Positions 1 to 12,824 of a stretch of 12,824 bases of DNA are shown here, in pieces. The notes under the pieces were generated by a model. It saw only the letters and a program-made list of their open reading frames with translations, did no database searches and was not told where the DNA came from. Each line of letters begins with the position of its first letter. Within the stretch, counting starts at the first letter, position 1. Location of the stretch: IMG/VR virus record IMGVR_UViG_2740892209_000012; one strand, written 5' to 3'. The DNA comes from a virus (lineage: Duplodnaviria; Heunggongvirae; Uroviricota; Caudoviricetes). Made by a program: the position numbers and the translations under genes.

Positions 1-170
1 GTTAAGCATCCACAGGCTGGTATCTGCAACCGATTATAACGGATGCTTAACGTAATGCGTGAAGTATGGACATATTTTATCAATTAGTGTTTTTTGCCGT
101 TTCATAATGTTTCAGATTGTTCATTATGTTTTTGATTATCAACGGATTTGCTATTTTCCTTGTTTCAGCT

Positions 171-227
171 TGTTTCACGTTGTAGCGCTTTGTGCAACGA
201 TCGGTGTAGTTAATGGTGTAGTTAATT
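171..227. repeat. attL: left copy of attachment-site direct repeat
   Basis: 192-227 matches 11247-11282 at 35 of 36 positions; similarity extends to 171-183 vs 11226-11238, with a divergent 8-bp patch between. Core contains tandem GGTGTAGTTAAT x2 (203-226). Confidence 0.75.
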
Positions 228-1478
228 GTGATGACCGGAATCAAAATTATGCGCAGAGCACTTAACAAACTGAGTGATACACAGCTAAGGAAAATCAACG
301 GCACACCCGCCCAAAAAACAGCCTTTCTTAATGACGGTGGAAACCTGAGCGTCAGGCATTCAACCAGCGGCCTTTTAACCTGGTATTTCACCTACAGGGC
401 CGGAACGGGAAGGGGAGCACGACCGGAACGGATTAAGCTGGGAAATTATCCTGATCTGAGTCTGAAAGCTGCCAGGGAAAAAGCGGCACAGTGTCGCGCT
501 TGGCTTGCTGAGGGGAAAAATCCACGTCATGAGATGAATTACACCGTACAGAAAGCGTTAAAGCCCGTAACGGTTGGCGATGCGCTTACCTACTGGCTTG
601 AGTCTTACGTAAAGGAAAACCGCGTGGATTATGCCGCCCTGAAAAAGCGCCTTAATAATCACGTAATACAGCACATTGGTGCTATGCCGCTGGATAAATG
701 CGAGCTACGGCACTGGCTGGCCTGTTTTGACCAGGTGGCAAAGCGAACGCCTGTTACTGCCGGATTCTTGCTACAGACGTGCAAACAGGCGCTTAAGTTC
801 TGCCGGAGGCGGCGCTATGCAATCAGCAACGTTCTTGATGATATGAGTGTGGCGGACGTTGGGAAAAAACCGGATATAAGCGAGCGTGTCTTAAGCACCA
901 AAGAACTTGGCGAATTATTGCAGGCACTGGACAAAAAAATATTTTCCCCTTACTACGTCGCACTAATCCGCCTCCTGATTGTTTTCGGATGCCGGACGGT
1001 AGAACTGAGGTTATCGGAGATCAGCGAGTGGGATTTTACCGAAATGCTCTGGACCGTGCCGAAAGAACACAGCAAAACGAAGGTGGCAATATTCCGGCCC
1101 ATACCGGAAGCAATACTGCCGTTCGTCACGCAGCTGGTGGAGCAGAACAGGCACACGGGCTTATTGCTGGGGGAAGTGAAACAGGAAACAAGCGTGTCGC
1201 AGTACGGCAGATTAGCGCACAGGAGGCTAAAACACCCTCACTGGTCACTGCATGACATCCGGCGCACCTTTACAACGATGCTGAACGATTTAGGCGTGGA
1301 TCCTCACGTCGTGGAGCAGCTTACAGGTCATCAGATGCCAGGGATGCAACGAGTCTATAACCATTCCCGTTATCTGGATGCGAAACGTGACGCGCTGGAT
1401 ATGTGGACGGAGCGGTTAGGGATACTGGCGGGAACACATGAAAACGTAACCACATTGCCAATAGCCAGAGAAATATAA
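228..1478 (+). CDS. int: Tyrosine recombinase / integrase, P4-family type
   Basis: 416-codon ORF. N-terminal arm-binding-like pattern (LNDGGNLSVR, WYFTYR, IKLGNYPDLSL..AR) and C-terminal catalytic signature (LHDIRRTF, GH......Y) typical of P4-like integrases. Begins right after the attL core. Start uncertain: GTG 228, ATG 231 or ATG 249. Confidence 0.9.
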   Translation: MMTGIKIMRRALNKLSDTQLRKINGTPAQKTAFLNDGGNLSVRHSTSGLLTWYFTYRAGTGRGARPERIKLGNYPDLSLKAAREKAAQCRAWLAEGKNPRHEMNYTVQKALKPVTVGDALTYWLESYVKENRVDYAALKKRLNNHVIQHIGAMPLDKCELRHWLACFDQVAKRTPVTAGFLLQTCKQALKFCRRRRYAISNVLDDMSVADVGKKPDISERVLSTKELGELLQALDKKIFSPYYVALIRLLIVFGCRTVELRLSEISEWDFTEMLWTVPKEHSKTKVAIFRPIPEAILPFVTQLVEQNRHTGLLLGEVKQETSVSQYGRLAHRRLKHPHWSLHDIRRTFTTMLNDLGVDPHVVEQLTGHQMPGMQRVYNHSRYLDAKRDALDMWTERLGILAGTHENVTTLPIAREI

Positions 1479-1843: not shown

Positions 1844-2032
1844 GTGTTAAGCACAGATCGCTTTATACGTGAAAAAGAATGTCAGCAACTTACAGGCCTG
1901 AGCCGCTCATGTCGGTACCGCCTGGAAAAAGCCGGACAATTCCCATCACGGCGTAAGCTGGGCGGTCGTTCCGTTGGCTGGTCTTTATCCGAAGTTTTGG
2001 CATGGAAGGACAGCTGCGAGGCAGTTCACTAA
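1844..2032 (+). CDS. alpA: AlpA/Vis-family HTH regulator (excision and transcription activator type)
   Basis: 62-aa ORF with GTG start preceded by AAGGGGGA Shine-Dalgarno; FIREKECQQLTGLSRSCRYRLEKAGQFPSRRKLGGRSVGWSLSEVLAW matches the AlpA-type small HTH pattern; position immediately downstream of int as in Gram-negative PICIs. Confidence 0.8.
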   Translation: MLSTDRFIREKECQQLTGLSRSCRYRLEKAGQFPSRRKLGGRSVGWSLSEVLAWKDSCEAVH

Positions 2033-2084: not shown

Positions 2085-3371
2085 ATGAATACTGGATATT
2101 CTCCCGAACAAGGGCGGGGCTTCGTTCGTCCTGAAAAACAGAATCTGCAAAATTTTGCCGAAATTATTCCGGTTATTTCCGGCCTTACTGGCGGGAGTGA
2201 AACCAATATTGTTAACGCCAGAGCGTTGCAGATGTTTGATGATAAAAAGGGAGTAAATTTAACTTACACCCCTGACGGCAATCAGAATATGAGCATTATC
2301 TCTGAGTCAGGTTTCTACAAACTAATAAAAACAAAAAGCGCCCCGTTGCCGGAGCGCCTTTGTGAACAATTAACCTACTGCGCAAAAAATGAATCTGAGC
2401 AGTGGGATTATATCAACCATGTGGAGAAGCGCCACAATTGCCGAATAACGGGCAAAACAAAGGCCACCCGCTACAGTGGCCCCTCGACACAAGCTACACG
2501 TTATCCCCAACGCATGAGCATTGCCAACAATGCCACATTTGCGGCTGGTGGGCAATGCAATCAGTCTGGTTCAGTTCGTTGCCATACCTGCAATGAGCGC
2601 TTTTCCCTGTACTCTTTAAGGAATTGCTCAAGGGCAAAAGCACATGGCGCGAATCTTTCTGATTCATGCTCTATCTTTCTGCGCCGTCTTTTCCGTGCCG
2701 GTGATAATGTTTTGGTCAATTCTTTATCGGTCATTGTGTTGTCCTGCATAGCAATGCGCCGTAGTTACTCACACCACGGCGCTGGTGATGGTTACTCCTG
2801 CTCTTTGGCCTTGCGGCGCTGGCGGCGTTTGATTTCGCCGCGCATGGCTGCGTTTATAAACTGTCCCGTGCTTTCGCCTTCTTCTTTCACGTTCTCCATG
2901 CCTTCAATAATTTCATGGGCAATACGTGCAGTTACAGATTGTGATTTTGCATTCTTTGGACCCGTTGCCATGTTTAACCCCTCATGTTTTTGGTGTAAGA
3001 CAATATACACGAAAAAAAAATATTTTGAAGGGTTGGCGTGTAAGACACCATTGTTTTACATTGTGTCTTACACCTTATTGATGAAAGGCACAGAAACGAC
3101 GAAACCCCGCACTGTAGGAGCAGTAACGGGGCTTCTAACCACCAACGATAGCAACAGTATCGAGGTAGCTATGAGAAATCATACCACACACCCGAAAGGG
3201 CGGGACTCGCACAACCTGAATAAATACATCTGGCGTTTTATCGCCCTGAGCACGGCACAACCGCGCGTGATTACCATTGAGGCCACCAGCGAACAGGAAG
3301 CACGCCAGCAATCTCCGGCTGGCTGCGTGATGGTATTTGCTGCCCGTATTCGTCAGGGGGTAGGCTTATGA
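2085..3371 (+). CDS. Questionable 428-codon open frame; probably not one gene. Only the N-terminal ~85 codons look protein-like (BRO-N/antirepressor-like ISESGFYKLI motif)
   Basis: No stop for 1287 nt, but the central part is Cys/Ser/Arg/Leu-rich junk-like translation, runs antisense to a well-supported small minus-strand gene (2792-2971), and reads through an AT-rich operator/promoter region (2993-3080). The 3' end coincides with the Icd-like ORF starting at 3171. Confidence 0.2.
   Translation: MNTGYSPEQGRGFVRPEKQNLQNFAEIIPVISGLTGGSETNIVNARALQMFDDKKGVNLTYTPDGNQNMSIISESGFYKLIKTKSAPLPERLCEQLTYCAKNESEQWDYINHVEKRHNCRITGKTKATRYSGPSTQATRYPQRMSIANNATFAAGGQCNQSGSVRCHTCNERFSLYSLRNCSRAKAHGANLSDSCSIFLRRLFRAGDNVLVNSLSVIVLSCIAMRRSYSHHGAGDGYSCSLALRRWRRLISPRMAAFINCPVLSPSSFTFSMPSIISWAIRAVTDCDFAFFGPVAMFNPSCFWCKTIYTKKKYFEGLACKTPLFYIVSYTLLMKGTETTKPRTVGAVTGLLTTNDSNSIEVAMRNHTTHPKGRDSHNLNKYIWRFIALSTAQPRVITIEATSEQEARQQSPAGCVMVFAARIRQGVGL
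2324..2357 (-). terminator. Candidate intrinsic terminator for leftward transcription
   Basis: Stem GCGCCCCG (2338-2345) / CGGAGCGC (2350-2357), loop TTGC; on the minus strand it is followed by TTTTTGTTTTTATT (complement of 2324-2337). Confidence 0.35.
2792..2971 (-). CDS. Small basic hypothetical protein (59 aa), candidate autoregulated regulator
   Basis: Minus-strand ATG at 2971 preceded by GAGGGG Shine-Dalgarno (6-nt spacing); protein-like K/E-rich composition (MATGPKNAKSQSVTARIAHEIIEG...KRRQRRKAKEQE); promoter-like -35 TTCAAA / -10 TATATT upstream with a GTGTAAGACA operator-like repeat overlapping the -10/start region. Confidence 0.5.
   Translation of the reverse strand: MATGPKNAKSQSVTARIAHEIIEGMENVKEEGESTGQFINAAMRGEIKRRQRRKAKEQE
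2993..3073. promoter_or_regulatory. Divergent promoter/operator region with three GTGTAAGACA half-sites
   Basis: GTGTAAGACA at 2993-3002; perfect 11-bp inverted repeat GTGTAAGACAC (3038-3048) / GTGTCTTACAC (3063-3073) with a 14-bp spacer; lies between the minus-strand small gene and the plus-strand Icd-like ORF; -35-like TTTACA at 3055-3060 on the plus strand. Confidence 0.55.
3171..3371 (+). CDS. Icd-like small protein (host cell division inhibitor-like family seen in P1/P4-type immunity regions)
   Basis: ATG 3171 preceded by GAGG (5-nt spacing); 66 aa; the YIWRFIALSTAQPRVITIEATSEQEARQQSPAGCVMVFAARIR pattern resembles recalled Icd-like proteins; stop overlaps the next start (ATGA at 3368-3371). 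Confidence 0.45.
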   Translation: MRNHTTHPKGRDSHNLNKYIWRFIALSTAQPRVITIEATSEQEARQQSPAGCVMVFAARIRQGVGL

Positions 3372-4043: not shown

Positions 4044-4343
4044 ATGAAACTTAAATATTCTGGCTTAACTGCCAGTGGCAAAACTCGCACTAAATTCATG
4101 CGCGGTGATATTTACCGCGACCAGTACGGCGGCACGGTAATGATTAAGGGCGTGGAGGAACGGCGCGTAACCTACCGTCGTGAAGGCTACGAATATGATT
4201 GCGTGATGCCTGTTTATCAGTTCGATCGTGATTTTTCTCTGGTGCAGGCCGTACCGCGTAACGTGCCCACCAGCAGGGAGAAAGCACGCGCCAATATTCA
4301 GGAAATAAAAAAGATGCTTAACGTATTCAGGGGTAAGAAATGA
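4044..4343 (+). CDS. Hypothetical basic protein (99 aa), translationally coupled to the primase gene
   Basis: ATG 4044 with GGAGA Shine-Dalgarno; stop TGA 4341-4343 overlaps the primase ATG 4340 (ATGA). Confidence 0.65.
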   Translation: MKLKYSGLTASGKTRTKFMRGDIYRDQYGGTVMIKGVEERRVTYRREGYEYDCVMPVYQFDRDFSLVQAVPRNVPTSREKARANIQEIKKMLNVFRGKK

Positions 4344-6088
4344 AACTGGCACCGAACGTAAAAAAACAACCACGCGGAATAAAACACAAAGACACAGAGG
4401 TAATTATTTTCGCGGGTAGTGATGCGTGGTCACATGCAAAACAGTGGCAGGAGCAGGACGGCCCCGCATCCGGCGATAATGTGCCGCCTGTGTGGCTTGG
4501 GCCAAATCAGCTTGCCGAACTTGATGCGCTGAAAATTGTTCCGGATGGGAAAAAGCGCGTAAGGCTGTACCAGGCCGGAGAACTGGATTTGGTGGAGACC
4601 AAAAAGATTGGTCAGAAGCTGGCGGCGGCAGATATTCAGGACGCAAATTTTTACCCCGAAGGAATGCACGTCCAGAAGTGTGAAAACTGGCGGCGCTATC
4701 TGAATGCTGAGCGTGAAAATATTGCCGCAGGGCTTACCATGCCGGAGCAGAAAAATACGCAACTGGCACAAATGGCAGACAGTGAGCGCGCGCAGCTGCT
4801 TGCCGAGCGCTTTGATGGCGTTTGTGTGCATCCTGAAAGTGAAATCGTTCACGTATGGCGCGGCGGGGTATGGTGTCCGGTCAGCACAATGGAGCTGAGC
4901 CGCGAAATGGTGGCGATCTATTCAGAGCACAGGGCCACTTTCAGCAAGCGCGTAATCAATAACGCCGTGGAAGCGTTAAAAGTTATTGCCGAACCAATGG
5001 GCGAGCCGTCCGGCTATTTGCTGCCGTTCGCCAATGGTGCGCTTGACCTGAAAACGGGGGAATTTTCCCCGCACACGCCGGAGAACTGGATCACCACGCA
5101 CAACGGCATTGAGTACACGCCACCAGCACCAGGGGAGAACATCCGCGATAACGCGCCAAACTTTCATAAATGGCTTAAGCACGCAGCCGGAAAAGACCCG
5201 CGCAAGATGATGCGTATATGTGCCGCGCTGTACATGATTATGGCGAACCGGTACGACTGGCAGATGTTTATTGAGGCCACCGGAGACGGCGGGAGCGGTA
5301 AAAGTACATTCACACACATAGCCAGCCTTCTGGCAGGGAAACAGAACACGGTAAGCGCTGAAATGACATCGCTTGATGATGCTGGTGGACGTGCGCAGGT
5401 TGTCGGGAGTCGTCTTATCGTCCTGGCTGACCAGCCGAAATATACAGGCGAAGGAACGGGCATCAAGAAAATCACGGGCGGTGACCCCGTGGAAATTAAC
5501 CCGAAATACGAAAAGCGTTTCACGGCTGTAATCAGGGCGGTGGTGCTGGCGACCAACAATAACCCGATGATATTCACCGAACGGGCCGGAGGTGTGGCAC
5601 GTCGTCGCGTGATTTTCCGTTTCGACAATATCGTCAGTGAGGCCGAAAAAGACAGGGAGCTACCGGAAAAGATCGCGGCTGAAATCCCTGTCATTATCCG
5701 CCGATTGCTGGCGAACTTTACCGACCCTGAGAAGGCACGGGCTTTACTACTGGAACAGCGTGACGGTGATGAAGCACTGGCAATAAAGCAACAGACGGAT
5801 CCGGTTATTGAGTTTTGCCAGTTCCTGAATTTTCTGGAGGAAGCGCGCGGCCTGATGATGGGGGGCGGTGGCGATTCAGTGAAGTACACGACCAGGAACA
5901 GCCTTTACCGCGTCTATCTGGCGTTTATGGCATACGCAGGCAGGAGCAAACCGCTAAACGTAAATGACTTTGGAAAGGCTATGAAGCCTGCCGCAAAAGT
6001 TTACGGACATGAATATATTACGCGGAAAGTTAAGGGGGTAACGCAGACTAACGCAATAACAACAGACGAGTGCGACGCGTTTTTATAA
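4340..6088 (+). CDS. Primase/replication initiator with D5_N-like and SF3-helicase P-loop domains (P4 alpha C-terminal type; PICI pri-rep-like)
   Basis: 582-aa ORF; FANGALDLKTGEF motif (D5_N-like), Walker A GDGGSGKST, Walker B-like RLIVLADQ; immediately followed by an iteron array. Confidence 0.9.
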   Translation: MKLAPNVKKQPRGIKHKDTEVIIFAGSDAWSHAKQWQEQDGPASGDNVPPVWLGPNQLAELDALKIVPDGKKRVRLYQAGELDLVETKKIGQKLAAADIQDANFYPEGMHVQKCENWRRYLNAERENIAAGLTMPEQKNTQLAQMADSERAQLLAERFDGVCVHPESEIVHVWRGGVWCPVSTMELSREMVAIYSEHRATFSKRVINNAVEALKVIAEPMGEPSGYLLPFANGALDLKTGEFSPHTPENWITTHNGIEYTPPAPGENIRDNAPNFHKWLKHAAGKDPRKMMRICAALYMIMANRYDWQMFIEATGDGGSGKSTFTHIASLLAGKQNTVSAEMTSLDDAGGRAQVVGSRLIVLADQPKYTGEGTGIKKITGGDPVEINPKYEKRFTAVIRAVVLATNNNPMIFTERAGGVARRRVIFRFDNIVSEAEKDRELPEKIAAEIPVIIRRLLANFTDPEKARALLLEQRDGDEALAIKQQTDPVIEFCQFLNFLEEARGLMMGGGGDSVKYTTRNSLYRVYLAFMAYAGRSKPLNVNDFGKAMKPAAKVYGHEYITRKVKGVTQTNAITTDECDAFL

Positions 6089-6650: not shown

Positions 6651-7073
6651 ATGACAGCACAGATAGCAGCTTACGGGCGGCTGGTGGACGACCCGCAGGT
6701 AAAACAGACCAGCAAGGGCACACCGATGACGCTGGCGCGTATGGCGGTCCCCCTTCCGTGCAGCCAGGCAGATGACGGAACGGCGACGATGTGGTTATCC
6801 GTCCTGGCATTTGGCAGACAGGCCGAAGCACTGGAAAGGCACCGCAAGGGTGAACTCCTGAGCGTGGCGGGTAACATGCAGATCAGCCAGTCGACTGGGC
6901 AGAACGGAGAAACGCGGCAGGGCTGGCAGGTTATCGCAGACAGTGTAATCAGTGCGCGAACGGCGCGACTGGGCGGCAAAAAAGGTCAACAGGGCCAGGC
7001 TACTGACGCGCTGAACAGGGCAAAACAACAGGCGGGGAATGATGATCCGTACGGGGATAACATACCGTTTTAA
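6651..7073 (+). CDS. Single-stranded DNA-binding protein-like (short SSB with acidic C-terminal tail)
   Basis: 140 aa; OB-fold-like N-terminus (GRLVDDPQVKQTSKG...) and C-terminal DDPYGDNIPF resembling the SSB acidic tail ending in IPF; followed by a strong terminator. Confidence 0.75.
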   Translation: MTAQIAAYGRLVDDPQVKQTSKGTPMTLARMAVPLPCSQADDGTATMWLSVLAFGRQAEALERHRKGELLSVAGNMQISQSTGQNGETRQGWQVIADSVISARTARLGGKKGQQGQATDALNRAKQQAGNDDPYGDNIPF

Positions 7074-7080
7074 GCGACGA

Positions 7081-7102
7081 GAGACAGAAGCCGGAGCAAT
7101 CC
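7081..7102 (+). terminator. Rho-independent terminator after ssb
   Basis: GCCGGA-GCAA-TCCGGC hairpin followed by TTTTTT. Confidence 0.7.
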
Positions 7103-7160
7103 GGCTTTTTTACGGGTCCTCCTGGCGGGGTGGGCCTGAACACGGGGCGGGAAGCGCGGA
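7103..7160 (+). other. Degenerate cos-like sequence (pseudo-cosQ/cosN), paralogous to the 9530-9606 region
   Basis: ACGGGTCCTCCTGG followed by GGGCGGGAAGCG (8 of 12 matches to cosN) and CGG-AAAAAAGCG; the preceding hairpin is near-identical to the one at 9530-9545. Confidence 0.35.
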
Positions 7161-7327: not shown

Positions 7328-7422
7328 GCATATGAGGCTTTTTGGTGCACTGACACACATGAGCGGGATCATCATTTCATAATTTGCAACACAACTCAAT
7401 ATCATTGCACAAAACGCAATCC

Positions 7423-7453
7423 TGATTATAATCAGAGCTGGATGAACATCCAG
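7423..7453. promoter_or_regulatory. Two adjacent palindromes upstream of the capsid operon (candidate operator/activator sites)
   Basis: Perfect palindrome TGATTATAATCA (7423-7434) and CTGGATG-AA-CATCCAG (7438-7453), about 35 bp upstream of the ATG at 7489. Confidence 0.35.
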
Positions 7454-7488
7454 TTATGATTTTTTAAGTCGAAGAGGAATTTCTTACT

Positions 7489-7695
7489 ATGGCTGAAGAG
7501 AAAAAAGGCGGTGTTTCGGTGTACATAAGCCCCGAAATCGTGGAGGTGCTCAAGCAGCGCCACAAAAAAAACTATGAGGCTGGCGTGGCGGCTGGACTGG
7601 ATCCGCTGATGACGCCGGAGCCGTCGATAGGTTCACTTGTACGCTCTTATTTACTTGCGGCGCTTGGGATGCATAAAAATTATGGGGGTGAATAA
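7489..7695 (+). CDS. Small hypothetical protein (68 aa), possibly ribbon-helix-helix-like, first gene of the capsid operon
   Basis: ATG 7489 with AGAGGA upstream; GVSVYISPEIVEVLKQ resembles an RHH beta-strand/helix start; stop overlaps the MCP start (TAATG). Confidence 0.55.
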   Translation: MAEEKKGGVSVYISPEIVEVLKQRHKKNYEAGVAAGLDPLMTPEPSIGSLVRSYLLAALGMHKNYGGE

Positions 7696-8750
7696 TGGCA
7701 GGCAAAGCAACGGCACTTAACACTAACCAGCTTTTCATGTACCTGAATCGCGGGGATATTGCGGATTTTAAATTCAGCCCTCTGTTTACTACGCTGTTTT
7801 TCCCGAACGTGGCGACATTCAGCACGCAAAACATCATGCTGGATACCCTGGACATTGAAGAAGTCACCATGTCGGCGTTTTGTTCGCCTATGGTGGGTAG
7901 CCAGGTTCAGCGCGATAAAGGGTACGAAACCAGCACGATTAAACCTGGCTACATGAAGCCAAAGCACGAAATCGATCCAACGAAAACCATCATGCGCATG
8001 GCTGGAGAAGATCCGGCACAGCTTAACGACCCTACCTATCGCCGTATGCGCCTGATTACTGGCAATATGCGCCGCCAGATAAACGCCATAAAAGCGCGCG
8101 TGGAATGGCTGGCGGTAAATGCGGTAACGACCGGAAAAAACATCATTGAGGGCGAAGGCATAGAGCGCTATGAAATCGACTGGAAGATACCGGAAAAAAA
8201 CATCATAGAGCAGGCCGACGGGAAAAAATGGTCAGAGCAGGACAAAGAAACCCACGATCCAATCTATGATATCGAACTATACGCCGATCAGGCTGGTTGC
8301 CCCGCAAACGTCATGATTATGGGCGCTGAGGTATGGCGAACGTTACGCAGCTTTAAAAAATTCCGTGAGCTGTACGATCTTTCCCGTGGTTCAGAATCCG
8401 CCGCCGAACTGGCCTGTAAAAACCTGGGCGAAGTGGTGAGCTTTAAAGGCTATCTTGGTGATCTGGCCCTTATCGTCTATTCCGGCAAATACACTGACAG
8501 CGATGGTACCGAAAAATATTTCCTTGAGCCTGATTTGCTGGTCCTGGGCAACACCAACAATAAAGGGCTGGTGGCCTATGGTGCGATAATGGATCAGGAA
8601 GCGGTAAGAACGGGCGCAACACAAAACATGTTTTACCCGAAAAACTGGATTGAGGACGGCGATCCGGCGATTGAGTACGTGCAGACGCACAGCGCACCGC
8701 AGCCGGTTCCGGCAGATATTCGCAAATTTGTTACCGTCAAAATTGGTTAA
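7695..8750 (+). CDS. Major capsid protein, lambda gpE-like
   Basis: 351 aa; multiple blocks align with recalled lambda E (FKFSPLF..LFF, PGYMKPKHE, EDPAQLNDPTYRRMR, WSEQDK..HDP, RSFK, LVLGNT..GL..YG, YPKNW...GDPA, SAP). Confidence 0.9.
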   Translation: MAGKATALNTNQLFMYLNRGDIADFKFSPLFTTLFFPNVATFSTQNIMLDTLDIEEVTMSAFCSPMVGSQVQRDKGYETSTIKPGYMKPKHEIDPTKTIMRMAGEDPAQLNDPTYRRMRLITGNMRRQINAIKARVEWLAVNAVTTGKNIIEGEGIERYEIDWKIPEKNIIEQADGKKWSEQDKETHDPIYDIELYADQAGCPANVMIMGAEVWRTLRSFKKFRELYDLSRGSESAAELACKNLGEVVSFKGYLGDLALIVYSGKYTDSDGTEKYFLEPDLLVLGNTNNKGLVAYGAIMDQEAVRTGATQNMFYPKNWIEDGDPAIEYVQTHSAPQPVPADIRKFVTVKIG

Positions 8751-8761
8751 CGGGGGATTCT

Positions 8762-9097
8762 ATGGACACTCCATACATTGAGTTATTTGCAGGCAGTCAG
8801 CAGGTCGCCACGACGCTGGTACATTTTGCCGCTGATGCTGGCGTTATTCAGGAATTTACCCCGCTGATGCTGGCGGACAATGGCGAGTTTAAGCCGTGGG
8901 ATGGTAAGGAATCTGGCAAGGCTGTTTATCTGACCTCGTACCCTGTGGACACGTCAAAGCAGAAATCAGCACAGTGTTACAAGACGGGGATATTCAATAT
9001 TGCCGCCGTTAACTGGCCTGAGAGCGTCGACACCGATGCGAAAAAATGCGCCGCCTTTGCGGGTTCCGGCGTATCCGTTCAGCCGCTGGCCCGATAA
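8762..9097 (+). CDS. Head decoration protein, lambda gpD-like
   Basis: 111 aa; C-terminal YKTGIFNIAAVNWPESVDTDAKKCAAFAGSGVSVQ resembles lambda D ([34 protein letters not shown]); GGGGGA Shine-Dalgarno; lies downstream of the E-like gene (order reversed relative to lambda). Confidence 0.8.
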   Translation: MDTPYIELFAGSQQVATTLVHFAADAGVIQEFTPLMLADNGEFKPWDGKESGKAVYLTSYPVDTSKQKSAQCYKTGIFNIAAVNWPESVDTDAKKCAAFAGSGVSVQPLAR

Positions 9098-9109
9098 GCA
9101 GGGGGAACG

Positions 9110-9523
9110 ATGGCAACGAATGAAAGCATCATGACGCTACCGCTGGCGAGTAAATTTAAAGCCGAAGCGCGGGCAATGGCTGACAGAGGTTTATCAACCT
9201 ATGAGGCCGTATATCAACTAAACAAACTGGAAGAGCAGGACAAGCCGCGCGCTGATGCGATTATGGCGCTTCATGAGCATAAAGACTATCAGCCGCTGTT
9301 GCGTGCAATGGCAAACGTGCCTTGTATCGATGTTGGTACGGCTAAAAGCATCCTTAGCATGACCATAGAGCAGGAGCGCCCAAAGGTTGCACCAGAGCTT
9401 ACCGCAGCCTTTGAAAACTTTATGGACATGCACAGCCCGCAAGCCGTATCAGCTGGCATGGCATACGATGGCAGAAACCAGGGCGATGACGGCGACATCG
9501 ATCGCATACTGAAAACCATCTGA
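9110..9523 (+). CDS. Hypothetical protein (137 aa), last gene of the capsid operon
   Basis: ATG 9110 with AGGGGGAA Shine-Dalgarno; protein-like composition; followed by a strong terminator. No family recognised. Confidence 0.7.
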   Translation: MATNESIMTLPLASKFKAEARAMADRGLSTYEAVYQLNKLEEQDKPRADAIMALHEHKDYQPLLRAMANVPCIDVGTAKSILSMTIEQERPKVAPELTAAFENFMDMHSPQAVSAGMAYDGRNQGDDGDIDRILKTI

Positions 9524-9529
9524 GACAAG

Positions 9530-9552
9530 GCCGGAGAAATCCGGCTTTTTTT
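9530..9552 (+). terminator. Rho-independent terminator immediately upstream of cos
   Basis: GCCGGA-GAAA-TCCGGC hairpin followed by TTTTTTT. Confidence 0.7.
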
Positions 9553-9640
9553 ACGGGTCCTTTCCGGCATATGGACCCGTTACGGGGCGGCGACCTCGCG
9601 GTTTTTCGCTATTTATGAGCCTTTTCAGGGGGGTGGTGGT
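9553..9640 (+). other. Lambda-type cohesive end site (cosQ-cosN-proximal cosB), forward orientation
   Basis: ACGGGTCCTTTCCGG (cosQ-like, matches recalled lambda right end), GTTACG then GGGCGGCGACCT (9585-9596, identical to the lambda 12-nt cohesive end), then CGCGGTTTTTCGCTATTTATGA (near-identical to the lambda left end start); located about 135 bp upstream of the Nu1-like gene. Confidence 0.8.
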
Positions 9641-9729: not shown

Positions 9730-10272
9730 ATGAAATCGCACCTGATGAACAAAAAAAACATGGCGAAAAGCTGCCGTGTAAGTGCGACAGCGTTCGACAA
9801 GTGGGGAGTGACTCCCGTTGAACGTAAAGGCCGTGAGGCGTTTTACGATGTTGCCAGCGTGATAGACAATAGGGTTAACAATGCAATTAGCCAGCTTACA
9901 AACGACAAAGGCGATATTGATGATGATGAACTCTTACGAGTCAGGATCAGATTACTGACAGCACAGGCGGAGGCGCAGGAACTTAAAAACGAGCGCGATC
10001 GCGGTGACGTGATTGATACTGAGTTTTGCCTGTACGCGCTTTCAAAGCTGGCGAGTCAGATTTCATCAATCATGGACAGCCTCCCGCTTACTATGCAAAG
10101 GAGCTTCCCACAGATTACCCCCGCCATGCTGGATAGGCTTAAAAGGGAAGTGGTTAAAGCCTGTAATGCCAGTGCCAGAGTTGCCGACAACCTCCCACAG
10201 ATACTGGCTGATTACTTGAAAGAAACAACCGGAAACGTACCGGAAAAGTTGCTACAGAAGAAAGGCGAGTAA
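9730..10272 (+). CDS. Terminase small subunit, lambda Nu1-like
   Basis: 180 aa; LTAQAEAQELKNERDRGDVIDTEFCLYALSKLASQISSIMDSLPLTMQRSFPQ aligns with recalled lambda Nu1 (LTRAQADAQELKNARDSAEVVETAFCTFVLSRIAGEIASILDGLPLSVQRRFPE); the N-terminal NKK... region matches the Nu1 N-terminus; start may be ATG 9730 or ATG 9745. Confidence 0.85.
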   Translation: MKSHLMNKKNMAKSCRVSATAFDKWGVTPVERKGREAFYDVASVIDNRVNNAISQLTNDKGDIDDDELLRVRIRLLTAQAEAQELKNERDRGDVIDTEFCLYALSKLASQISSIMDSLPLTMQRSFPQITPAMLDRLKREVVKACNASARVADNLPQILADYLKETTGNVPEKLLQKKGE

Positions 10273-10274
10273 CA

Positions 10275-10500
10275 GACGCGCAATTATTGAACAAAACTGA
10301 GAAACGACATGAAAGCGTCATAAATCGCCATTTTAGATGATTACCGTGTCGTTTCTTTTTATTGTGTATCTATTTAAAAACAAATAGTTATGTTCGAGAA
10401 GTACCGACATGCTTTTTCCAGAAAAATTTTCATAAACAGATAAAAACCGCGAGGTCGCCGCCCCGTAACGGGCCATAATTCCAGGAAGGACCCGACGACA
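10275..10500 (-). other. Second lambda-type cos site in inverted orientation with extended lambda-like cosB
   Basis: The reverse complement reads cosQ-like CGGGTCCTTCCTGG, then GTTACG-GGGCGGCGACCT-CGCGGTTTTT (cosN on plus strand at 10452-10463), then TTTATGAAAATTTTT, CATAACTATTTGTTTTTAAATAGATA, AAAAAGAAACGACACGG and GTCGTTTCTCAGTTTTG, mirroring recalled lambda cosB blocks (R3/R2/R1 region). It shares a 36-bp inverted repeat with cos1 (9571-9606 vs 10442-10477, 1 mismatch). Confidence 0.7.
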
Positions 10501-10527: not shown

Positions 10528-10809
10528 ATGACAGAAGCCGAAATACTGCGATTAATCCGCCGCGTTGCCGGAATCAGCCAGCAGGCCGACGAACAGACCA
10601 CGCAGCCGGACAGCGTGACCGCCGAAAATTATGTTCGTGTGGTTGCTGAGGTGATTCGCCGTAATGGTATCCAGCTTAATGATGTGGATATGCGCAACAT
10701 ACGGATCCGCGTTCTTGAAATGCTGGCCTACAATCGCCGCGTGGCACTGTATCGGGAAACGGAGAAAATTACGTACCACTGGAAGAAGCCGGAGCGGTTG
10801 CGGCGGTAA
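10528..10809 (+). CDS. Hypothetical protein (93 aa)
   Basis: ATG 10528 with GGGGG Shine-Dalgarno; protein-like composition; starts 28 bp beyond the cos2 cosQ-like end. No family recognised. Confidence 0.6.
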   Translation: MTEAEILRLIRRVAGISQQADEQTTQPDSVTAENYVRVVAEVIRRNGIQLNDVDMRNIRIRVLEMLAYNRRVALYRETEKITYHWKKPERLRR

Positions 10810-10977: not shown

Positions 10978-11225
10978 ACAATCCCCCATTGGGGGAGGCT
11001 GGGCGGCCTGCTGTGGGCTTTTCCACCATTGGTGGAAAGGCGCACATCTGGATCATCATTACGGTGATCAAGGGTATGTAAAACCCACCAGCCTGATTGA
11101 CATTTAACCGGAAAAAAGCCAGGTAGCCCCGTTATGGGGATCCCCATATCGACATTAACGCCCCTCATGAATTGGCGCGCTTCCCCCTGGAAAGATGACC
11201 CGCCTGTATATTTCTTGTGTCTATT

Positions 11226-11282
11226 TGTTCCACGTTGTTTCATACAGTGCAACGATCGGTGTAGTTAATGGTGTAGTCAATT
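11226..11282. repeat. attR: right copy of attachment-site direct repeat
   Basis: 11247-11282 matches 192-227 (35 of 36); the upstream block 11226-11238 matches 171-183. Confidence 0.75.
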
Positions 11283-11363: not shown

Positions 11364-12824
11364 TTATTCATCTTTCGGCGCAGAATGCTGGCGACCAAAA
11401 ATCACCTCCATCCGCGCACCGCCCAGCATGCTCTCTCCGGCGACGATTTTACCCTCATATTGCTCGGTGATTTCGCGGGCTACCGCCAGCCCCACACCTT
11501 GCCCAGGGCGTAAAGTATCAACCCGTTGACCACGGTCGAAAATGACCTCTCGCTTGCTTAATGGAATACCGGGGCCATCATCCTCGACCACAATATAGAG
11601 ATGCTCGTCGGTTTGCCTTGCAGAAATTTCGACAAACTCGAGGCAATATTTACAGGCGTTATCCAGCACGTTGCCCATCACTTCGACAAAATCGTTCTGC
11701 TCACCAACAAAGCTGATTTCTGGCGAGATATCGAGAGAGATATTGACCCCTTTGCGTTGATACACTTTGTTCAGCGCCGAGGTGAGATTGTCCAACAGTG
11801 GCGCGACCGGATGCAGCTCGCGGCTAAGCAATGTCCCGCCGCGCATACTGGCACGATGCAGGTAGTAGCCAATTTGCTGTGAAATGCGGCTGATTTGCTC
11901 CAGCATTACCGGCTCAGCATCACTGACGCTCATCTTCTCACTACGCAGAGAACGCAGCGTACTTTGCAGCACCGCCAGTGGCGTTTTCAGACTATGGGTC
12001 AGGTCGGTGAGCGTTGTACGATATTTGTCGTAACGTTCGCGTTCACTTTTTAACAGTCGGTTCAGGTTTCGTACCAGACTGGTCAGTTCTCGCGTTGTGG
12101 CTGGATTGAGCAATTCACGGTTATGTTCTTCCAGTTCGCGGACTTCTTTTGCCAGGGCTTCGATGGGGCGTAAACTCCACCAGGCGGCGACCCACAGCAG
12201 CGGGATCACTAACAGCAGATTGGCTGAGAGCACATAGATAAACCAGCTCCAGACCATATAGGAACTTTTTAGCTCCACCGGAATGGTATCCACCACCACA
12301 ATGGTTAACTTTGGCATCCGCGATGTTGCCGGGTAGACGTTTACCGCCACCGAGTGGGTCATCTCCGCGTCGTCATCATCTTCCCGCACTTCCTGCAACT
12401 GTTGCTGTATCGAATGATCTCCACTCAGCAAGAGGCTGGTATCGTTAACATCCGCTTCAATTTCATGAAAACCATTCGATTTCAGCCAGTCAGGCTGGAT
12501 CATCTTCATCAGCCAGGGCACGTCACGTTGCGCCCATAAAAGCTGCCCGTTCTCATCATAAATTAGTGTCATCGTGGGGCTTTGCTTGTCGATATTTTCG
12601 GGTAACTCGACATGCAACTTATTGTTTTCCCACTTCGCAAGGGTATAGAACAGATTGCTCTCGCCACGTAACAGCCGAAACGTGGTTTTATCGAAACTGA
12701 CGCTATAACCGATCAGCGCAACCATTCCGTAGGCAAGCGAAAGCACCAATACTACTGCTGCCGTTGCTAACAGAAAACGTACCCGCAGCGAGAGCGGGAA
12801 AAAAAGATGCAGTAATTTTTTCAT
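11364..12824 (-). CDS. phoQ: Sensor histidine kinase PhoQ (PhoP/PhoQ two-component system), complete
   Basis: 486-aa product matching recalled E. coli PhoQ essentially throughout: N-terminal transmembrane segment, periplasmic acidic patch [11 protein letters not shown], second transmembrane segment, H-box [15 protein letters not shown]-binding boxes DDGPGIP and [12 protein letters not shown]; start codon at the window edge (12822-12824). Confidence 0.97.

What the first reader, a model, noticed from the sequence alone, without database searches (positions are those of the whole stretch)
7489..9523. Partial capsid module: island encodes its own gpE-like capsid and gpD-like decoration proteins but no portal, protease/scaffold or TerL
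Classical PICIs and P4 remodel helper capsids with accessory proteins, and capsid-forming PICIs carry a near-complete head module. Here only the shell protein, a decoration protein and two unknown small proteins are present, with E-then-D order reversed relative to lambda. This suggests the satellite substitutes the capsid shell subunits while borrowing the helper portal, scaffold/protease, TerL and tails, possibly to build smaller capsids matched to an ~11-kb genome.
Basis: partly seen in the sequence, partly recalled or inferred. Interest (0 to 1): 0.75.

Follow-up and report, generated by a model that had tools for sequence, protein, structure and literature searches.

The report
Known PICI capsid, decoration, scaffold genes
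This is the already-described partial head-gene cluster of an E. coli phage satellite closely related to EcCICFT073: a capsid protein, a decoration protein and, newly recognised here, a shortened scaffolding protein, all strongly conserved although published knockouts of the first two show no effect.

Summary
Window 7695-8750 encodes a gpE-family major capsid protein (Pfam PF03864, E 6e-52). Window 8762-9097 encodes a gpD/SHP-family decoration protein (PF02924, E 2.5e-17). They sit in an 11,055-bp integrase/AlpA/primase island between roxA and phoQ. No portal, protease or large terminase gene is present.

It is not new. The island is about 95% identical to EcCICFT073, the model Gram-negative PICI. 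Its capsid gene is c1499 (crystal structure PDB 3BQW) and its decoration gene is c1500. Fillol-Salom et al. 2018 deleted both and saw no change in lambda interference or island transfer. Packaged DNA was phage-sized.

One claim is wrong. The 137-aa "unknown" protein (c1501) is an N-terminally shortened Nu3/gp6-type scaffolding protein (hhalign 96.9%, E 1.7e-10).

Added here: the capsid and decoration genes are under strong purifying selection (dN/dS 0.05-0.27). They form a satellite-specific lineage (50-98% identity among PICIs, at most 48% to any phage). The module occurs in 598 of 5,426 complete E. coli genomes.

The likeliest role is a coat, cement and scaffold kit that assembles on helper portals, redundant with the helper shell in laboratory assays. 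Small capsids remain unsupported.

The parts
152..227 (.). attL copy of the island's flanking direct repeat (identical core about 193-223)
   Evidence: Direct-repeat family D1: 76 nt, 80% identity, spacing 11,055 bp.
228..1478 (+). Tyrosine integrase
   Evidence: PF13356 and PF00589. RefSeq relatives are annotated as integrase at the same site next to roxA.
1844..2032 (+). AlpA-family regulator
   Evidence: PF05930, E 3e-18.
4044..6088 (+). DUF4222 protein (4044-4343) and D5_N/DUF5906 primase (4340-6088): the replication module
   Evidence: Pfam and PHROG hits.
6651..7073 (+). Single-strand DNA-binding protein
   Evidence: PF00436, E 1e-13.
7086..7160 (+). Terminator-like hairpin followed by a degenerate cos-like relic. 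It forms a direct repeat with 9530-9561.
   Evidence: Repeat families D6 and D14; alignment to cos1; fold of -15.4 kcal/mol.
7376..7461 (+). Conserved upstream control region of the capsid operon. It contains a TATAAT at 7427-7432, the near-palindrome ATTGCA-N5-CGCAAT at 7404-7420, and a hairpin with T-run at 7430-7466.
   Evidence: This stretch is the best-conserved part of the alignment of the upstream regions of eight islands, including ones whose capsid protein is only 64% identical. Hairpin z-score -4.0. The regulator is unknown.
7489..7695 (+). p68, a small PICI-specific protein of unknown function. Its stop overlaps the capsid gene's start.
   Evidence: phrog_3255, unknown function. No tblastn hit in 50,697 phage records. 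AlphaFold2 pLDDT 70.7 with two helices and no significant PDB fold match. dN/dS 0.23-0.39.
7695..8750 (+). gpE-family (HK97-fold) major capsid protein; orthologue of EcCICFT073 c1499
   Evidence: PF03864, E 5.9e-52. PDB 3BQW matches at E 8e-236. 98% aa identity to the CFT073 copy. dN/dS 0.06-0.13. 43-48% identity to lambda, phage 21 and PhiR12 capsids.
8762..9097 (+). gpD/SHP-family head decoration (cement) protein; orthologue of c1500
   Evidence: PF02924, E 2.5e-17. The best solved relatives are the head decoration proteins 1TD0/1TD3, which I recall to be phage 21 SHP. 43% identity to SHP. dN/dS 0.05-0.27.
9110..9523 (+). Shortened Nu3/gp6-type internal scaffolding protein; orthologue of c1501. 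It has two of the three 'Tri-box' repeats plus the C-terminal FExFMxxHSPxAV motif.
   Evidence: phrog_53 C-terminus, E 5e-9. tblastn to the C-terminus of the protease-Nu3 protein of phage PhiR12_2_star, E 5e-5. Alignment. hhalign 96.9%, E 1.7e-10, to phage 21 gp6 residues 68-186.
9527..9554 (+). Terminator-like hairpin with T-run closing the capsid operon
   Evidence: Sequence; fold of -14.6 kcal/mol.
9553..9620 (+). cos1 (cosQ-cosN; cohesive-end sequence GGGCGGCGACCT at 9585-9596)
   Evidence: Exact match, 0.09 expected by chance. 95.8% identical to the cos region of phage PhiR5_1.
9730..10272 (+). Full-length Nu1-family small terminase. It occupies the slot held by rppA (c1503) in EcCICFT073.
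   Evidence: PF07471, E 2e-23. 35% identity to lambda Nu1, 41% to PhiR5_1 and 46% to N15 gp1. No similarity to RppA.
10376..10490 (-). cos2, inverted relative to cos1 (cohesive-end sequence at 10452-10463), with a phage 21-type cosB (I2-R3-I1)
10528..10809 (+). p93, a conserved unknown protein downstream of cos2
   Evidence: phrog_1561, E 4e-54. Present in CFT073 and other islands.
11207..11282 (.). attR copy of the flanking direct repeat, next to phoQ (11364-12824, minus strand)

Best explanation
Region 7489-9523 is the conserved morphogenetic operon of an EcCICFT073-family, cos-type, Gram-negative phage-inducible chromosomal island (PICI).

Shown:
- It encodes a PICI-specific 68-aa protein of unknown role.
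- It encodes a gpE-family HK97-fold coat protein (c1499 orthologue, near-identical to PDB 3BQW).
- It encodes a gpD/SHP-family cement protein (c1500 orthologue).
- It encodes an N-terminally shortened Nu3/gp6-type internal scaffolding protein (c1501 orthologue).
- Together these are coat, cement and scaffold. This is the part of a lambda/21-type head that forms the shell. It lacks the portal, protease, large terminase, head-completion and tail functions.
- The coat and cement genes belong to a satellite-specific lineage and are under strong purifying selection.

Inferred:
- After helper induction the operon is expressed from its own conserved promoter.
- Its products assemble on helper-supplied portal. 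They form either island-only shells or shells mixed with the helper's gp7/SHP. The helper protease then processes them.
- This gives the island extra or preferred procapsids for the DNA that its own TerS and cos sites direct to the helper's large terminase.
- The contribution is redundant with the helper's own shell in laboratory transfer assays, which would explain why published deletions show no phenotype.
- It need not change capsid size. Four 11.06-kb units make 44 kb, which fits a lambda-sized head.
For: - Identity of the proteins.
- Same island family and same roxA/phoQ site as EcCICFT073: 88% coverage at 95% nucleotide identity.
- Selection: dN/dS is 0.06-0.13 for the coat gene and 0.05-0.27 for the cement gene. 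All twelve copies examined are intact.
- Lineage: PICI coat proteins are 50-98% identical to each other but only 38-48% to lambda, phage 21 or PhiR12 coats. They share diagnostic motifs and an N-arm insertion.
- Distribution: the E-D pair sits behind int/alpA/primase-or-helicase/SSB in E. coli, Salmonella and Serratia islands down to 52% identity. The module is in 598 of 5,426 complete E. coli genomes.
- Affinity with phage 21: the scaffold's C-terminal motif, the cement protein and the window's cos2 cosB are all closest to phage 21-type heads. The prophage integrated next to icd in CFT073 has a coat protein 100% identical to phage 21 gp7. PMC10111431 places EcCICFT073's helper at icd.
- Missing functions: portal, protease and TerL are absent.
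Against: - Published genetics on EcCICFT073 (PMC6092414): deleting c1499 or c1500 did not change transfer by the resident helper (3.8e3 and 8.7e3 against 8e3 per ml) or lambda interference.
- An island with c1499 replaced by cat transferred at 1e5 per ml with the resident helper and 1e6 per ml with phage 80.
- Single-gene overexpression of every gene other than rppA did not inhibit lambda or phage 80 (PMC6739421).
- No particle has been shown to contain island coat protein.
- In other PICI lineages the gene after D is an AlpA-domain protein, or is absent, rather than a scaffold. The three-gene set is therefore not universal.
Confidence: 0.45

Rival explanations
1. One reading: the island's coat, together with its shortened scaffold, builds smaller capsids (T below 7) sized for one 11-kb genome. 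This would exclude the helper genome, as the SaPIbov5 Ccm and P4 Sid strategies do.
For: - The scaffold homologue lacks the first of three repeats present in phage 21 gp6. Alternative scaffolds set capsid size in SaPI1 and P4 (my own knowledge of those systems).
- The coat N-arm differs from all phage relatives.
- Neither published construct was a clean test. The tetA insertion enlarged the island, and the size-neutral cat version replaced c1499.
Against: - With lambda as helper, all packaged DNA from EcCICFT073 lysates was phage-sized. No PICI-monomer band appeared after induction in CFT073 (PMC6092414).
- The tetA primers show that c1501 was left intact, so the three shell genes were whole in that background.
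- Loss of the coat gene did not reduce transfer.
Confidence: 0.15
2. The module is an interference device. Island coat, scaffold or cement proteins co-assemble with, or sequester, head components of particular competing or helper phages and so lower their yield.
For: - Satellites commonly interfere at the level of the capsid.
- The proteins are diverged enough (38-48% identity) to act as poison subunits, yet retain the scaffold C-terminal motif of 21-type phages.
- Strong selection without any transfer phenotype (PMC6092414).
Against: - Deleting c1499 or c1500 did not relieve lambda interference.
- Individually overexpressed genes other than rppA did not inhibit lambda or phage 80 (PMC6092414; PMC6739421).
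- No match to known defence families (PADLOC).
Confidence: 0.15
3. The genes are kept as a spare copy or recombination substrate. They would be late genes captured from helpers that back up a helper capsid gene interrupted by helper-embedded relatives. They would have no role in an island sitting at phoQ.
For: - Relatives are integrated inside the lambda-type E gene of prophages and carry their own E gene (L014; PMC10111431).
- That paper proposes late-gene capture and a back-up role.
Against: - The coat lineage is satellite-specific and older than the lambda/21 split (62% identity). It is not a recent capture.
- It is conserved under purifying selection in islands at chromosomal sites in several genera.
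- At most 48% identity to any phage coat gives no useful DNA homology for recombination.
Confidence: 0.12
4. The genes are decaying remnants with no current function.
For: No phenotype in any published assay (PMC6092414).
Against: - All copies are intact, with dN/dS of 0.05-0.13 at synonymous divergences up to about 0.9.
- Conservation extends across genera.
- The upstream promoter region is conserved.
Confidence: 0.03

Closest known systems
EcCICFT073 (E. coli CFT073 PICI; genes c1499, c1500, c1501; Fillol-Salom et al. 2018 and 2019)
   Same: - Same integration site (roxA/phoQ) and the same backbone.
- About 95% nucleotide identity over 88% of the window.
- Identical p68/coat/cement/scaffold operon: coat 98% and cement 100% amino-acid identity.
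- Two inverted cos sites.
   Different: - The slot between cos1 and cos2 holds a full-length Nu1-type TerS instead of RppA.
- cos2 has a phage 21-type cosB here but not in CFT073.
- The PerC-family gene upstream of the operon is missing. A cos-like relic sits there instead.
Capsid-forming PICIs (cf-PICIs, e.g. EcCIEDL933)
   Same: A satellite-specific capsid gene lineage distinct from phages, on the same int/alpA/primase backbone.
   Different: cf-PICIs carry portal, protease, head-tail connectors, HNH, TerS and TerL, and make complete small heads (bioRxiv 10.1101/2022.09.08.507074). This island has none of portal, protease, connectors or TerL, and its coat is gpE-family.
SaPIbov5 Ccm (capsid-protein homologue that redirects phage phi12 capsids)
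   Same: A satellite-encoded homologue of the helper's major capsid protein in a cos-type island.
   Different: Ccm demonstrably changes capsid size and shape and blocks the phage (PMC8569155 abstract). No such effect was found for c1499. This island also adds cement and scaffold homologues.
Lambda and phage 21 head genes Nu3/gp6, D/SHP and E/gp7
   Same: Same three protein families: coat 43-48%, cement 36-43%, scaffold about 29% identity with shared repeats and the shared C-terminal motif.
   Different: - The order is inverted (E-D-Nu3 here, Nu3-D-E in the phages).
- The scaffold is a free-standing gene, not nested in a protease gene, and lacks the first repeat.
- There are no neighbouring portal, protease or terminase genes.
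P4 (Sid external scaffold, Psu decoration)
   Same: An 11-kb cos satellite that supplies capsid-associated proteins, including a decoration protein, and uses helper heads and tails.
   Different: P4 encodes no coat protein. Sid and Psu are unrelated in sequence. No P4-type genes were detected here.

Membership tests
Gram-negative PICI (EcCICFT073 type) | Integrase at one end and flanking att repeats at a specific chromosomal site | tested here: met
   Integrase at 228-1478. 76-nt repeats spaced 11,055 bp apart. Same roxA/phoQ site as EcCICFT073.
Gram-negative PICI (EcCICFT073 type) | alpA regulator, with a primase or helicase replication module transcribed in the same direction | tested here: met
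   PF05930 at 1844-2032. D5_N/DUF5906 primase at 4340-6088. SSB. The origin of replication was not mapped.
Gram-negative PICI (EcCICFT073 type) | Size of about 10-15 kb with no lysis or tail genes | tested here: met
   11,055 bp. No such domains in any ORF.
Gram-negative PICI (EcCICFT073 type) | Helper-type cos site(s) and a packaging-redirection gene | tested here: met
   Two exact GGGCGGCGACCT sites flank a Nu1-family TerS. The TerS variant is the type reported for the IHE3034 island (PMC6092414).
Gram-negative PICI (EcCICFT073 type) | Induction and high-frequency transfer by a helper phage | not testable with these tools
   Shown experimentally only for EcCICFT073 (PMC6092414).
Phage_cap_E (lambda gpE) major capsid proteins | Full-length match above the Pfam gathering score, and the HK97 fold | tested here: met
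   177 bits against a cut-off of 22.9. Near-identical to the solved structure 3BQW and related to lambda gpE 7VI9.
gpD/SHP head decoration proteins | Match to PF02924 above the gathering score | tested here: met
   63.5 bits against a cut-off of 29.1. Solved relatives 1TD0 and 1C5E. Trimer formation on capsids was not tested.
Nu3/gp6-type internal scaffolding proteins | Sequence homology to the scaffold portion of lambdoid protease-scaffold (C/Nu3) proteins | tested here: met
   hhalign 96.9%, E 1.7e-10. phrog_53 positions 495-567 of 583. tblastn E 5e-5.
Nu3/gp6-type internal scaffolding proteins | Encoded in frame within the 3' part of the head protease gene, sharing its C-terminus | tested here: not met
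   It is a free-standing 137-aa gene and the island has no protease gene.
Nu3/gp6-type internal scaffolding proteins | Acts as an assembly scaffold that is removed from procapsids | not testable with these tools
   No experiment is available. c1501 has no assigned function in PMC6092414 Table S.
Capsid-forming PICI (cf-PICI) | Own portal, protease, head-tail connectors and large terminase | tested here: not met
   None is present.
P4-like satellites | sid, psu and delta capsid-size and decoration genes | tested here: not met
   No corresponding Pfam or PHROG hits among the island's ORFs.

The most novel reading that the evidence does not exclude
The coat, cement and short-scaffold genes form a self-contained shell-building kit. 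With a cognate 21-type helper, the kit would assemble satellite-specific capsids on the helper's portal, possibly smaller than T=7. That would make these islands an evolutionary intermediate between classical PICIs, which only remodel or borrow helper capsids, and cf-PICIs, which build the whole head.

This could have been missed because the two marked EcCICFT073 constructs used so far were either oversized (tetA) or lacked the coat gene (cat).
Probability: 0.15. Interest if true: 0.7.

Novelty: already known. Interest (0 to 1): 0.3.

Why it matters
The presence of capsid and decoration genes in these islands has been in the literature since 2018, and the coat protein's crystal structure is deposited, so the finding itself adds nothing new.

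What remains open is why a satellite keeps coat, cement and scaffold genes under strong selection, in about a tenth of complete E. coli genomes and across genera, when deleting the coat or cement gene has no measurable effect.

Recognising the third gene as a scaffold turns that puzzle into a concrete test: do these three proteins build a shell on a helper portal? If they do, the line between "capsid-borrowing" and "capsid-forming" satellites blurs. It would also bear on how EcCICFT073-derived delivery particles are engineered.

Tried and rejected
- **Marker confounder (rejected).** I suspected that the published knockouts were confounded because the tetA marker is named c1501::tetA, which would disrupt the scaffold gene. 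The primer sequences in Table S6 place the cassette exactly between the c1501 stop codon and the terminator, so c1501 is intact.
- **Wrong helper type (weakened).** I suspected that only lambda and phage 80 had been tested, not a cognate helper. The CFT073 prophage at icd has a coat protein 100% identical to phage 21 gp7 and a phage 21 cos. PMC10111431 places EcCICFT073's helper at icd, so a 21-type helper was probably tested.
- **p68 as a gpW analogue (rejected).** Both are 68 aa, but BLAST found no similarity. The AlphaFold2 model (pLDDT 70.7) gave no significant PDB match. The best was a TraM DNA-binding domain at E 0.7. A ribbon-helix-helix reading stays a guess.
- **Genome-collection scan.** The scan of genome contigs with the coat protein returned nothing, because the pattern method finds close relatives only. 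Context came from the look-up of encoding contigs instead.
- **Other negative searches.** Rfam found no RNA family. PADLOC found no defence family. NCBIfam had nothing useful.
Full report
**What is in the window**

The window holds a small integrative island inserted between roxA and phoQ.
- A 76-nt direct repeat occurs at 152-227 and again at 11207-11282, spaced 11,055 bp apart.
- Between the repeats, all on the + strand, lie these genes:
  - a tyrosine integrase and an AlpA regulator;
  - a DUF4222 protein, a D5_N/DUF5906 primase and an SSB;
  - the four ORFs of the finding;
  - a Nu1-family small terminase and a 93-aa unknown protein.
- phoQ follows on the minus strand.
- No tRNA or Rfam family is present.

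**The observation**

The coordinates given are exact.
- The 351-aa product of 7695-8750 matches Pfam Phage_cap_E at E 5.9e-52 and PHROG 29 at E 3e-108. It aligns end to end with lambda gpE at 44% identity.
- The 111-aa product of 8762-9097 matches the gpD family at E 2.5e-17. It is 36% identical to lambda gpD and 43% to phage 21 SHP.
- The order E then D is the reverse of lambda's Nu3-D-E.
- No ORF carries portal, S49 protease or large-terminase domains, and none of suitable size exists.

The 137-aa product of 9110-9523 is not an unknown protein. It is a shortened Nu3/gp6-type scaffold.
- It hits the C-terminal positions 495-567 of the 583-position "head maturation protease" PHROG at E 5e-9.
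- It hits the C-terminus of the protease-Nu3 fusion protein of phage PhiR12_2_star at E 5e-5. The PhiR12 phages also have the closest coat genes.
- An alignment was made with phage 21 gp6, the PhiR12 C-terminal region and lambda Nu3.
  - The island protein has two copies of the repeat that phage 21 annotates as "Tri boxes" (IMAL-EA...VPGMTV..AK.IL).
  - It has the C-terminal motif FExFMxxHSPxAV.
  - It lacks the first about 65 residues.
- A profile-profile comparison gives 96.9% probability, E 1.7e-10. It aligns island residues 5-122 to gp6 residues 68-186.
- NCBI names many copies "phage head-tail connector protein". This appears to echo the old "preconnector" label that the phage 21 record gives gp5/gp6.

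The 68-aa product of 7489-7695 stays unidentified.
- It has no homologue in 50,697 phage records.
- Its model (pLDDT 70.7, two helices) has no significant fold match.

**This is a known element**

- The whole window matches the CFT073 chromosome at the same site: 88% coverage at 95% identity. The RefSeq gene map there is the same.
- That element is EcCICFT073, the model Gram-negative PICI.
- Fillol-Salom et al. [quoted passage not shown]
- Their supplement lists c1501 as a 137-aa protein with no function.
- The coat protein matches the deposited crystal structure 3BQW, "putative capsid protein of prophage", at E 8e-236.
- A later survey states that a major capsid gene is present in 21 of 29 reference Gram-negative PICIs and is not required for transfer (PMC10111431).

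**What the published experiments say**

In PMC6092414:
- With lambda as helper, all packaged DNA was phage-sized.
- Deleting c1499 or c1500 did not restore lambda plaques.
- The same deletions left transfer by the resident prophage unchanged: 3.8e3 and 8.7e3 against 8e3 transductants per ml.
- A size-neutral marked island in which cat replaced c1499 transferred at 1e5 per ml with the resident helper and 1e6 per ml with phage 80.

In PMC6739421:
- Only c1503 (rppA), among the genes after the origin, inhibited lambda when overexpressed.

I checked two possible confounders.
- The tetA marker named c1501::tetA does not disrupt c1501. Its homology arms end at the c1501 stop codon and begin at the following terminator.
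- The resident helper is not an ill-matched phage. PMC10111431 places it at icd. The prophage at icd in CFT073 has a coat protein 100% identical to phage 21 gp7 and a phage 21 cos region.

One caveat survives and is my inference. The tetA island was enlarged by the cassette, and the cat island lacked the coat gene. Neither construct could therefore have shown unit-length island DNA in small island-made heads.

**What I add**

1. The genes are not relics.
   - Twelve copies were compared, from E. coli, Salmonella and Serratia. All are intact.
   - Pairwise dN/dS is 0.06-0.13 for the coat gene and 0.05-0.27 for the cement gene, at synonymous distances up to about 0.9.
   - The scaffold gene (0.04-0.43) and p68 (0.23-0.39) are less constrained.
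2. The coat proteins of these islands form their own lineage.
   - They are 50-98% identical to one another but only 38-48% to lambda, phage 21 or PhiR12 coats.
   - Those phage coats are 62-95% identical to each other.
   - The island proteins share diagnostic motifs and an N-arm insertion.
   - Every homologue examined down to 52% identity sits in an int/alpA/replication island followed by a gpD homologue.
3. The 2-kb module is found at 80% or higher nucleotide identity in 598 of 5,426 complete E. coli genomes.
4. The third gene varies between lineages.
   - It is a Nu3-like scaffold in the lineages with 62-98% coat identity in E. coli.
   - It is absent in a Salmonella island.
   - It is an AlpA-domain protein in the 52-56% lineages.
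   - The E-D pair is therefore the constant core.
5. The operon has its own strongly conserved upstream region, with a TATAAT, a near-palindrome and a hairpin with a T-run. It ends in a hairpin terminator just before cos1.

**Packaging context**

- Two exact copies of the lambda-type cohesive-end sequence lie in inverted orientation at 9585-9596 and 10452-10463. This matches cos1 and cos2 of EcCICFT073.
- Here they flank a full-length Nu1-type TerS (35% identity to lambda Nu1, 46% to N15 gp1). EcCICFT073 has RppA in that slot.
- The region next to cos2 is 90% identical over 94 nt to the I2-R3-I1 part of phage 21 cosB. EcCICFT073's cos2 is not.
- The cement protein and the scaffold motif are also closest to phage 21. 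The likely helpers are therefore lambdoid phages with 21-type heads.

**How it most likely works**

- Shown: the island encodes coat, cement and scaffold but no portal, protease, TerL, head-completion or tail genes. The coat and cement genes are maintained by selection in a satellite-specific lineage.
- Inferred: on helper induction these proteins assemble on helper portals, either alone or mixed with helper subunits. The helper protease matures them. Island DNA is loaded through the island's TerS and cos sites and the helper's TerL.
- The contribution would be redundant with helper shells in laboratory transfers.
- Size redirection is not required. Four 11.06-kb units give 44 kb, within my recollection of lambda's packaging range, and phage-sized DNA is what was observed for EcCICFT073.
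- I give this reading about 0.45. The rivals are small capsids (0.15), capsid-level interference against untested phages (0.15), a spare copy for helper-embedded relatives (0.12) and relics (0.03).

**Verdict**

- The "no scaffold" element is wrong.
- The proposed small-capsid mechanism lacks support from the experiments done on a relative about 95% identical in nucleotide sequence.
- The residual interest lies in the unexplained conservation of the genes and in the newly explicit coat, cement and scaffold combination, which makes direct tests easy to design.

Noticed in passing
window 9585-9596 (+) and 10452-10463 (-); cosB side 10376-10450: Two inverted cos sites flank terS, as published for EcCICFT073. 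In this window the cos2 flank is 90% identical to phage 21's I2-R3-I1 cosB segment, whereas EcCICFT073's cos2 flank is not. This suggests cos2 serves direct packaging by 21-type terminase and cos1 serves the island's own TerS. That would bear on the published open question of why some PICIs have two cos sites.
   Followed up: partly
window 9730-10272: A full-length Nu1-family TerS, including the C-terminal region that in lambda binds gpA, replaces RppA of EcCICFT073 in an otherwise near-identical late region. It is at most 46% identical to any phage TerS in the collection.
   Followed up: partly
window 7086-7160 versus 9527-9620: A 31-nt direct repeat (terminator hairpin plus ACGGGTCCT) and a degenerate cosN-like sequence precede the capsid operon, so the operon is bracketed by cos-like repeats. 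An exact-match search for a 15-nt piece of the repeat found the upstream copy only in the window's closest relative (L002). CFT073 and other islands have a PerC-family regulator gene at that position.
   Followed up: partly
window 7376-7466: The non-coding region upstream of p68 is more conserved than the coding genes across diverged islands. It contains ATTTGCAAC, the near-palindrome ATTGCA-N5-(T/C)GCAAT, a TATAAT and a hairpin with a T-run. The regulator is unknown. There is no similarity to the helper phage regions searched.
   Followed up: partly
L008 1277-11492 and L015 4292-11812: Two related islands with gpE-type coat and gpD-type cement genes are embedded among the tail and baseplate genes of myovirus-type (P2-like tail) prophages (baseplate V/W/J, P2 gpI-type tail protein, tail fibre, tube). 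By my recollection P2-type phages use a different coat family, which is an odd pairing if the host prophage is the helper.
   Followed up: no
P0030 (463 aa): One metagenomic homologue carries both the Phage_cap_E and the gpD (HDPD) domains in a single ORF. It is either an E-D fusion or a sequencing artefact.
   Followed up: no
L018 33690-41125 (CFT073 prophage at icd): The prophage integrated next to icd in CFT073, about 7 kb beyond phoQ, has a major capsid protein 100% identical to phage 21 gp7 and a phage 21 cos region. PMC10111431 places EcCICFT073's helper at icd, so the helper is probably a 21-type phage in its head module.
   Followed up: yes
window 2085-3371 (+), 2561-2749 (-), 2792-3010 (-): The 428-aa + strand ORF has no family hit. 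It overlaps two small minus-strand ORFs that correspond in position to a hypothetical gene and a YlcI/YnfO-family gene annotated in relatives. The long ORF is probably spurious.
   Followed up: partly
window 10528-10809: A 93-aa protein (phrog_1561, unknown function) is conserved downstream of cos2 in all close relatives. Its role is unknown.
   Followed up: no
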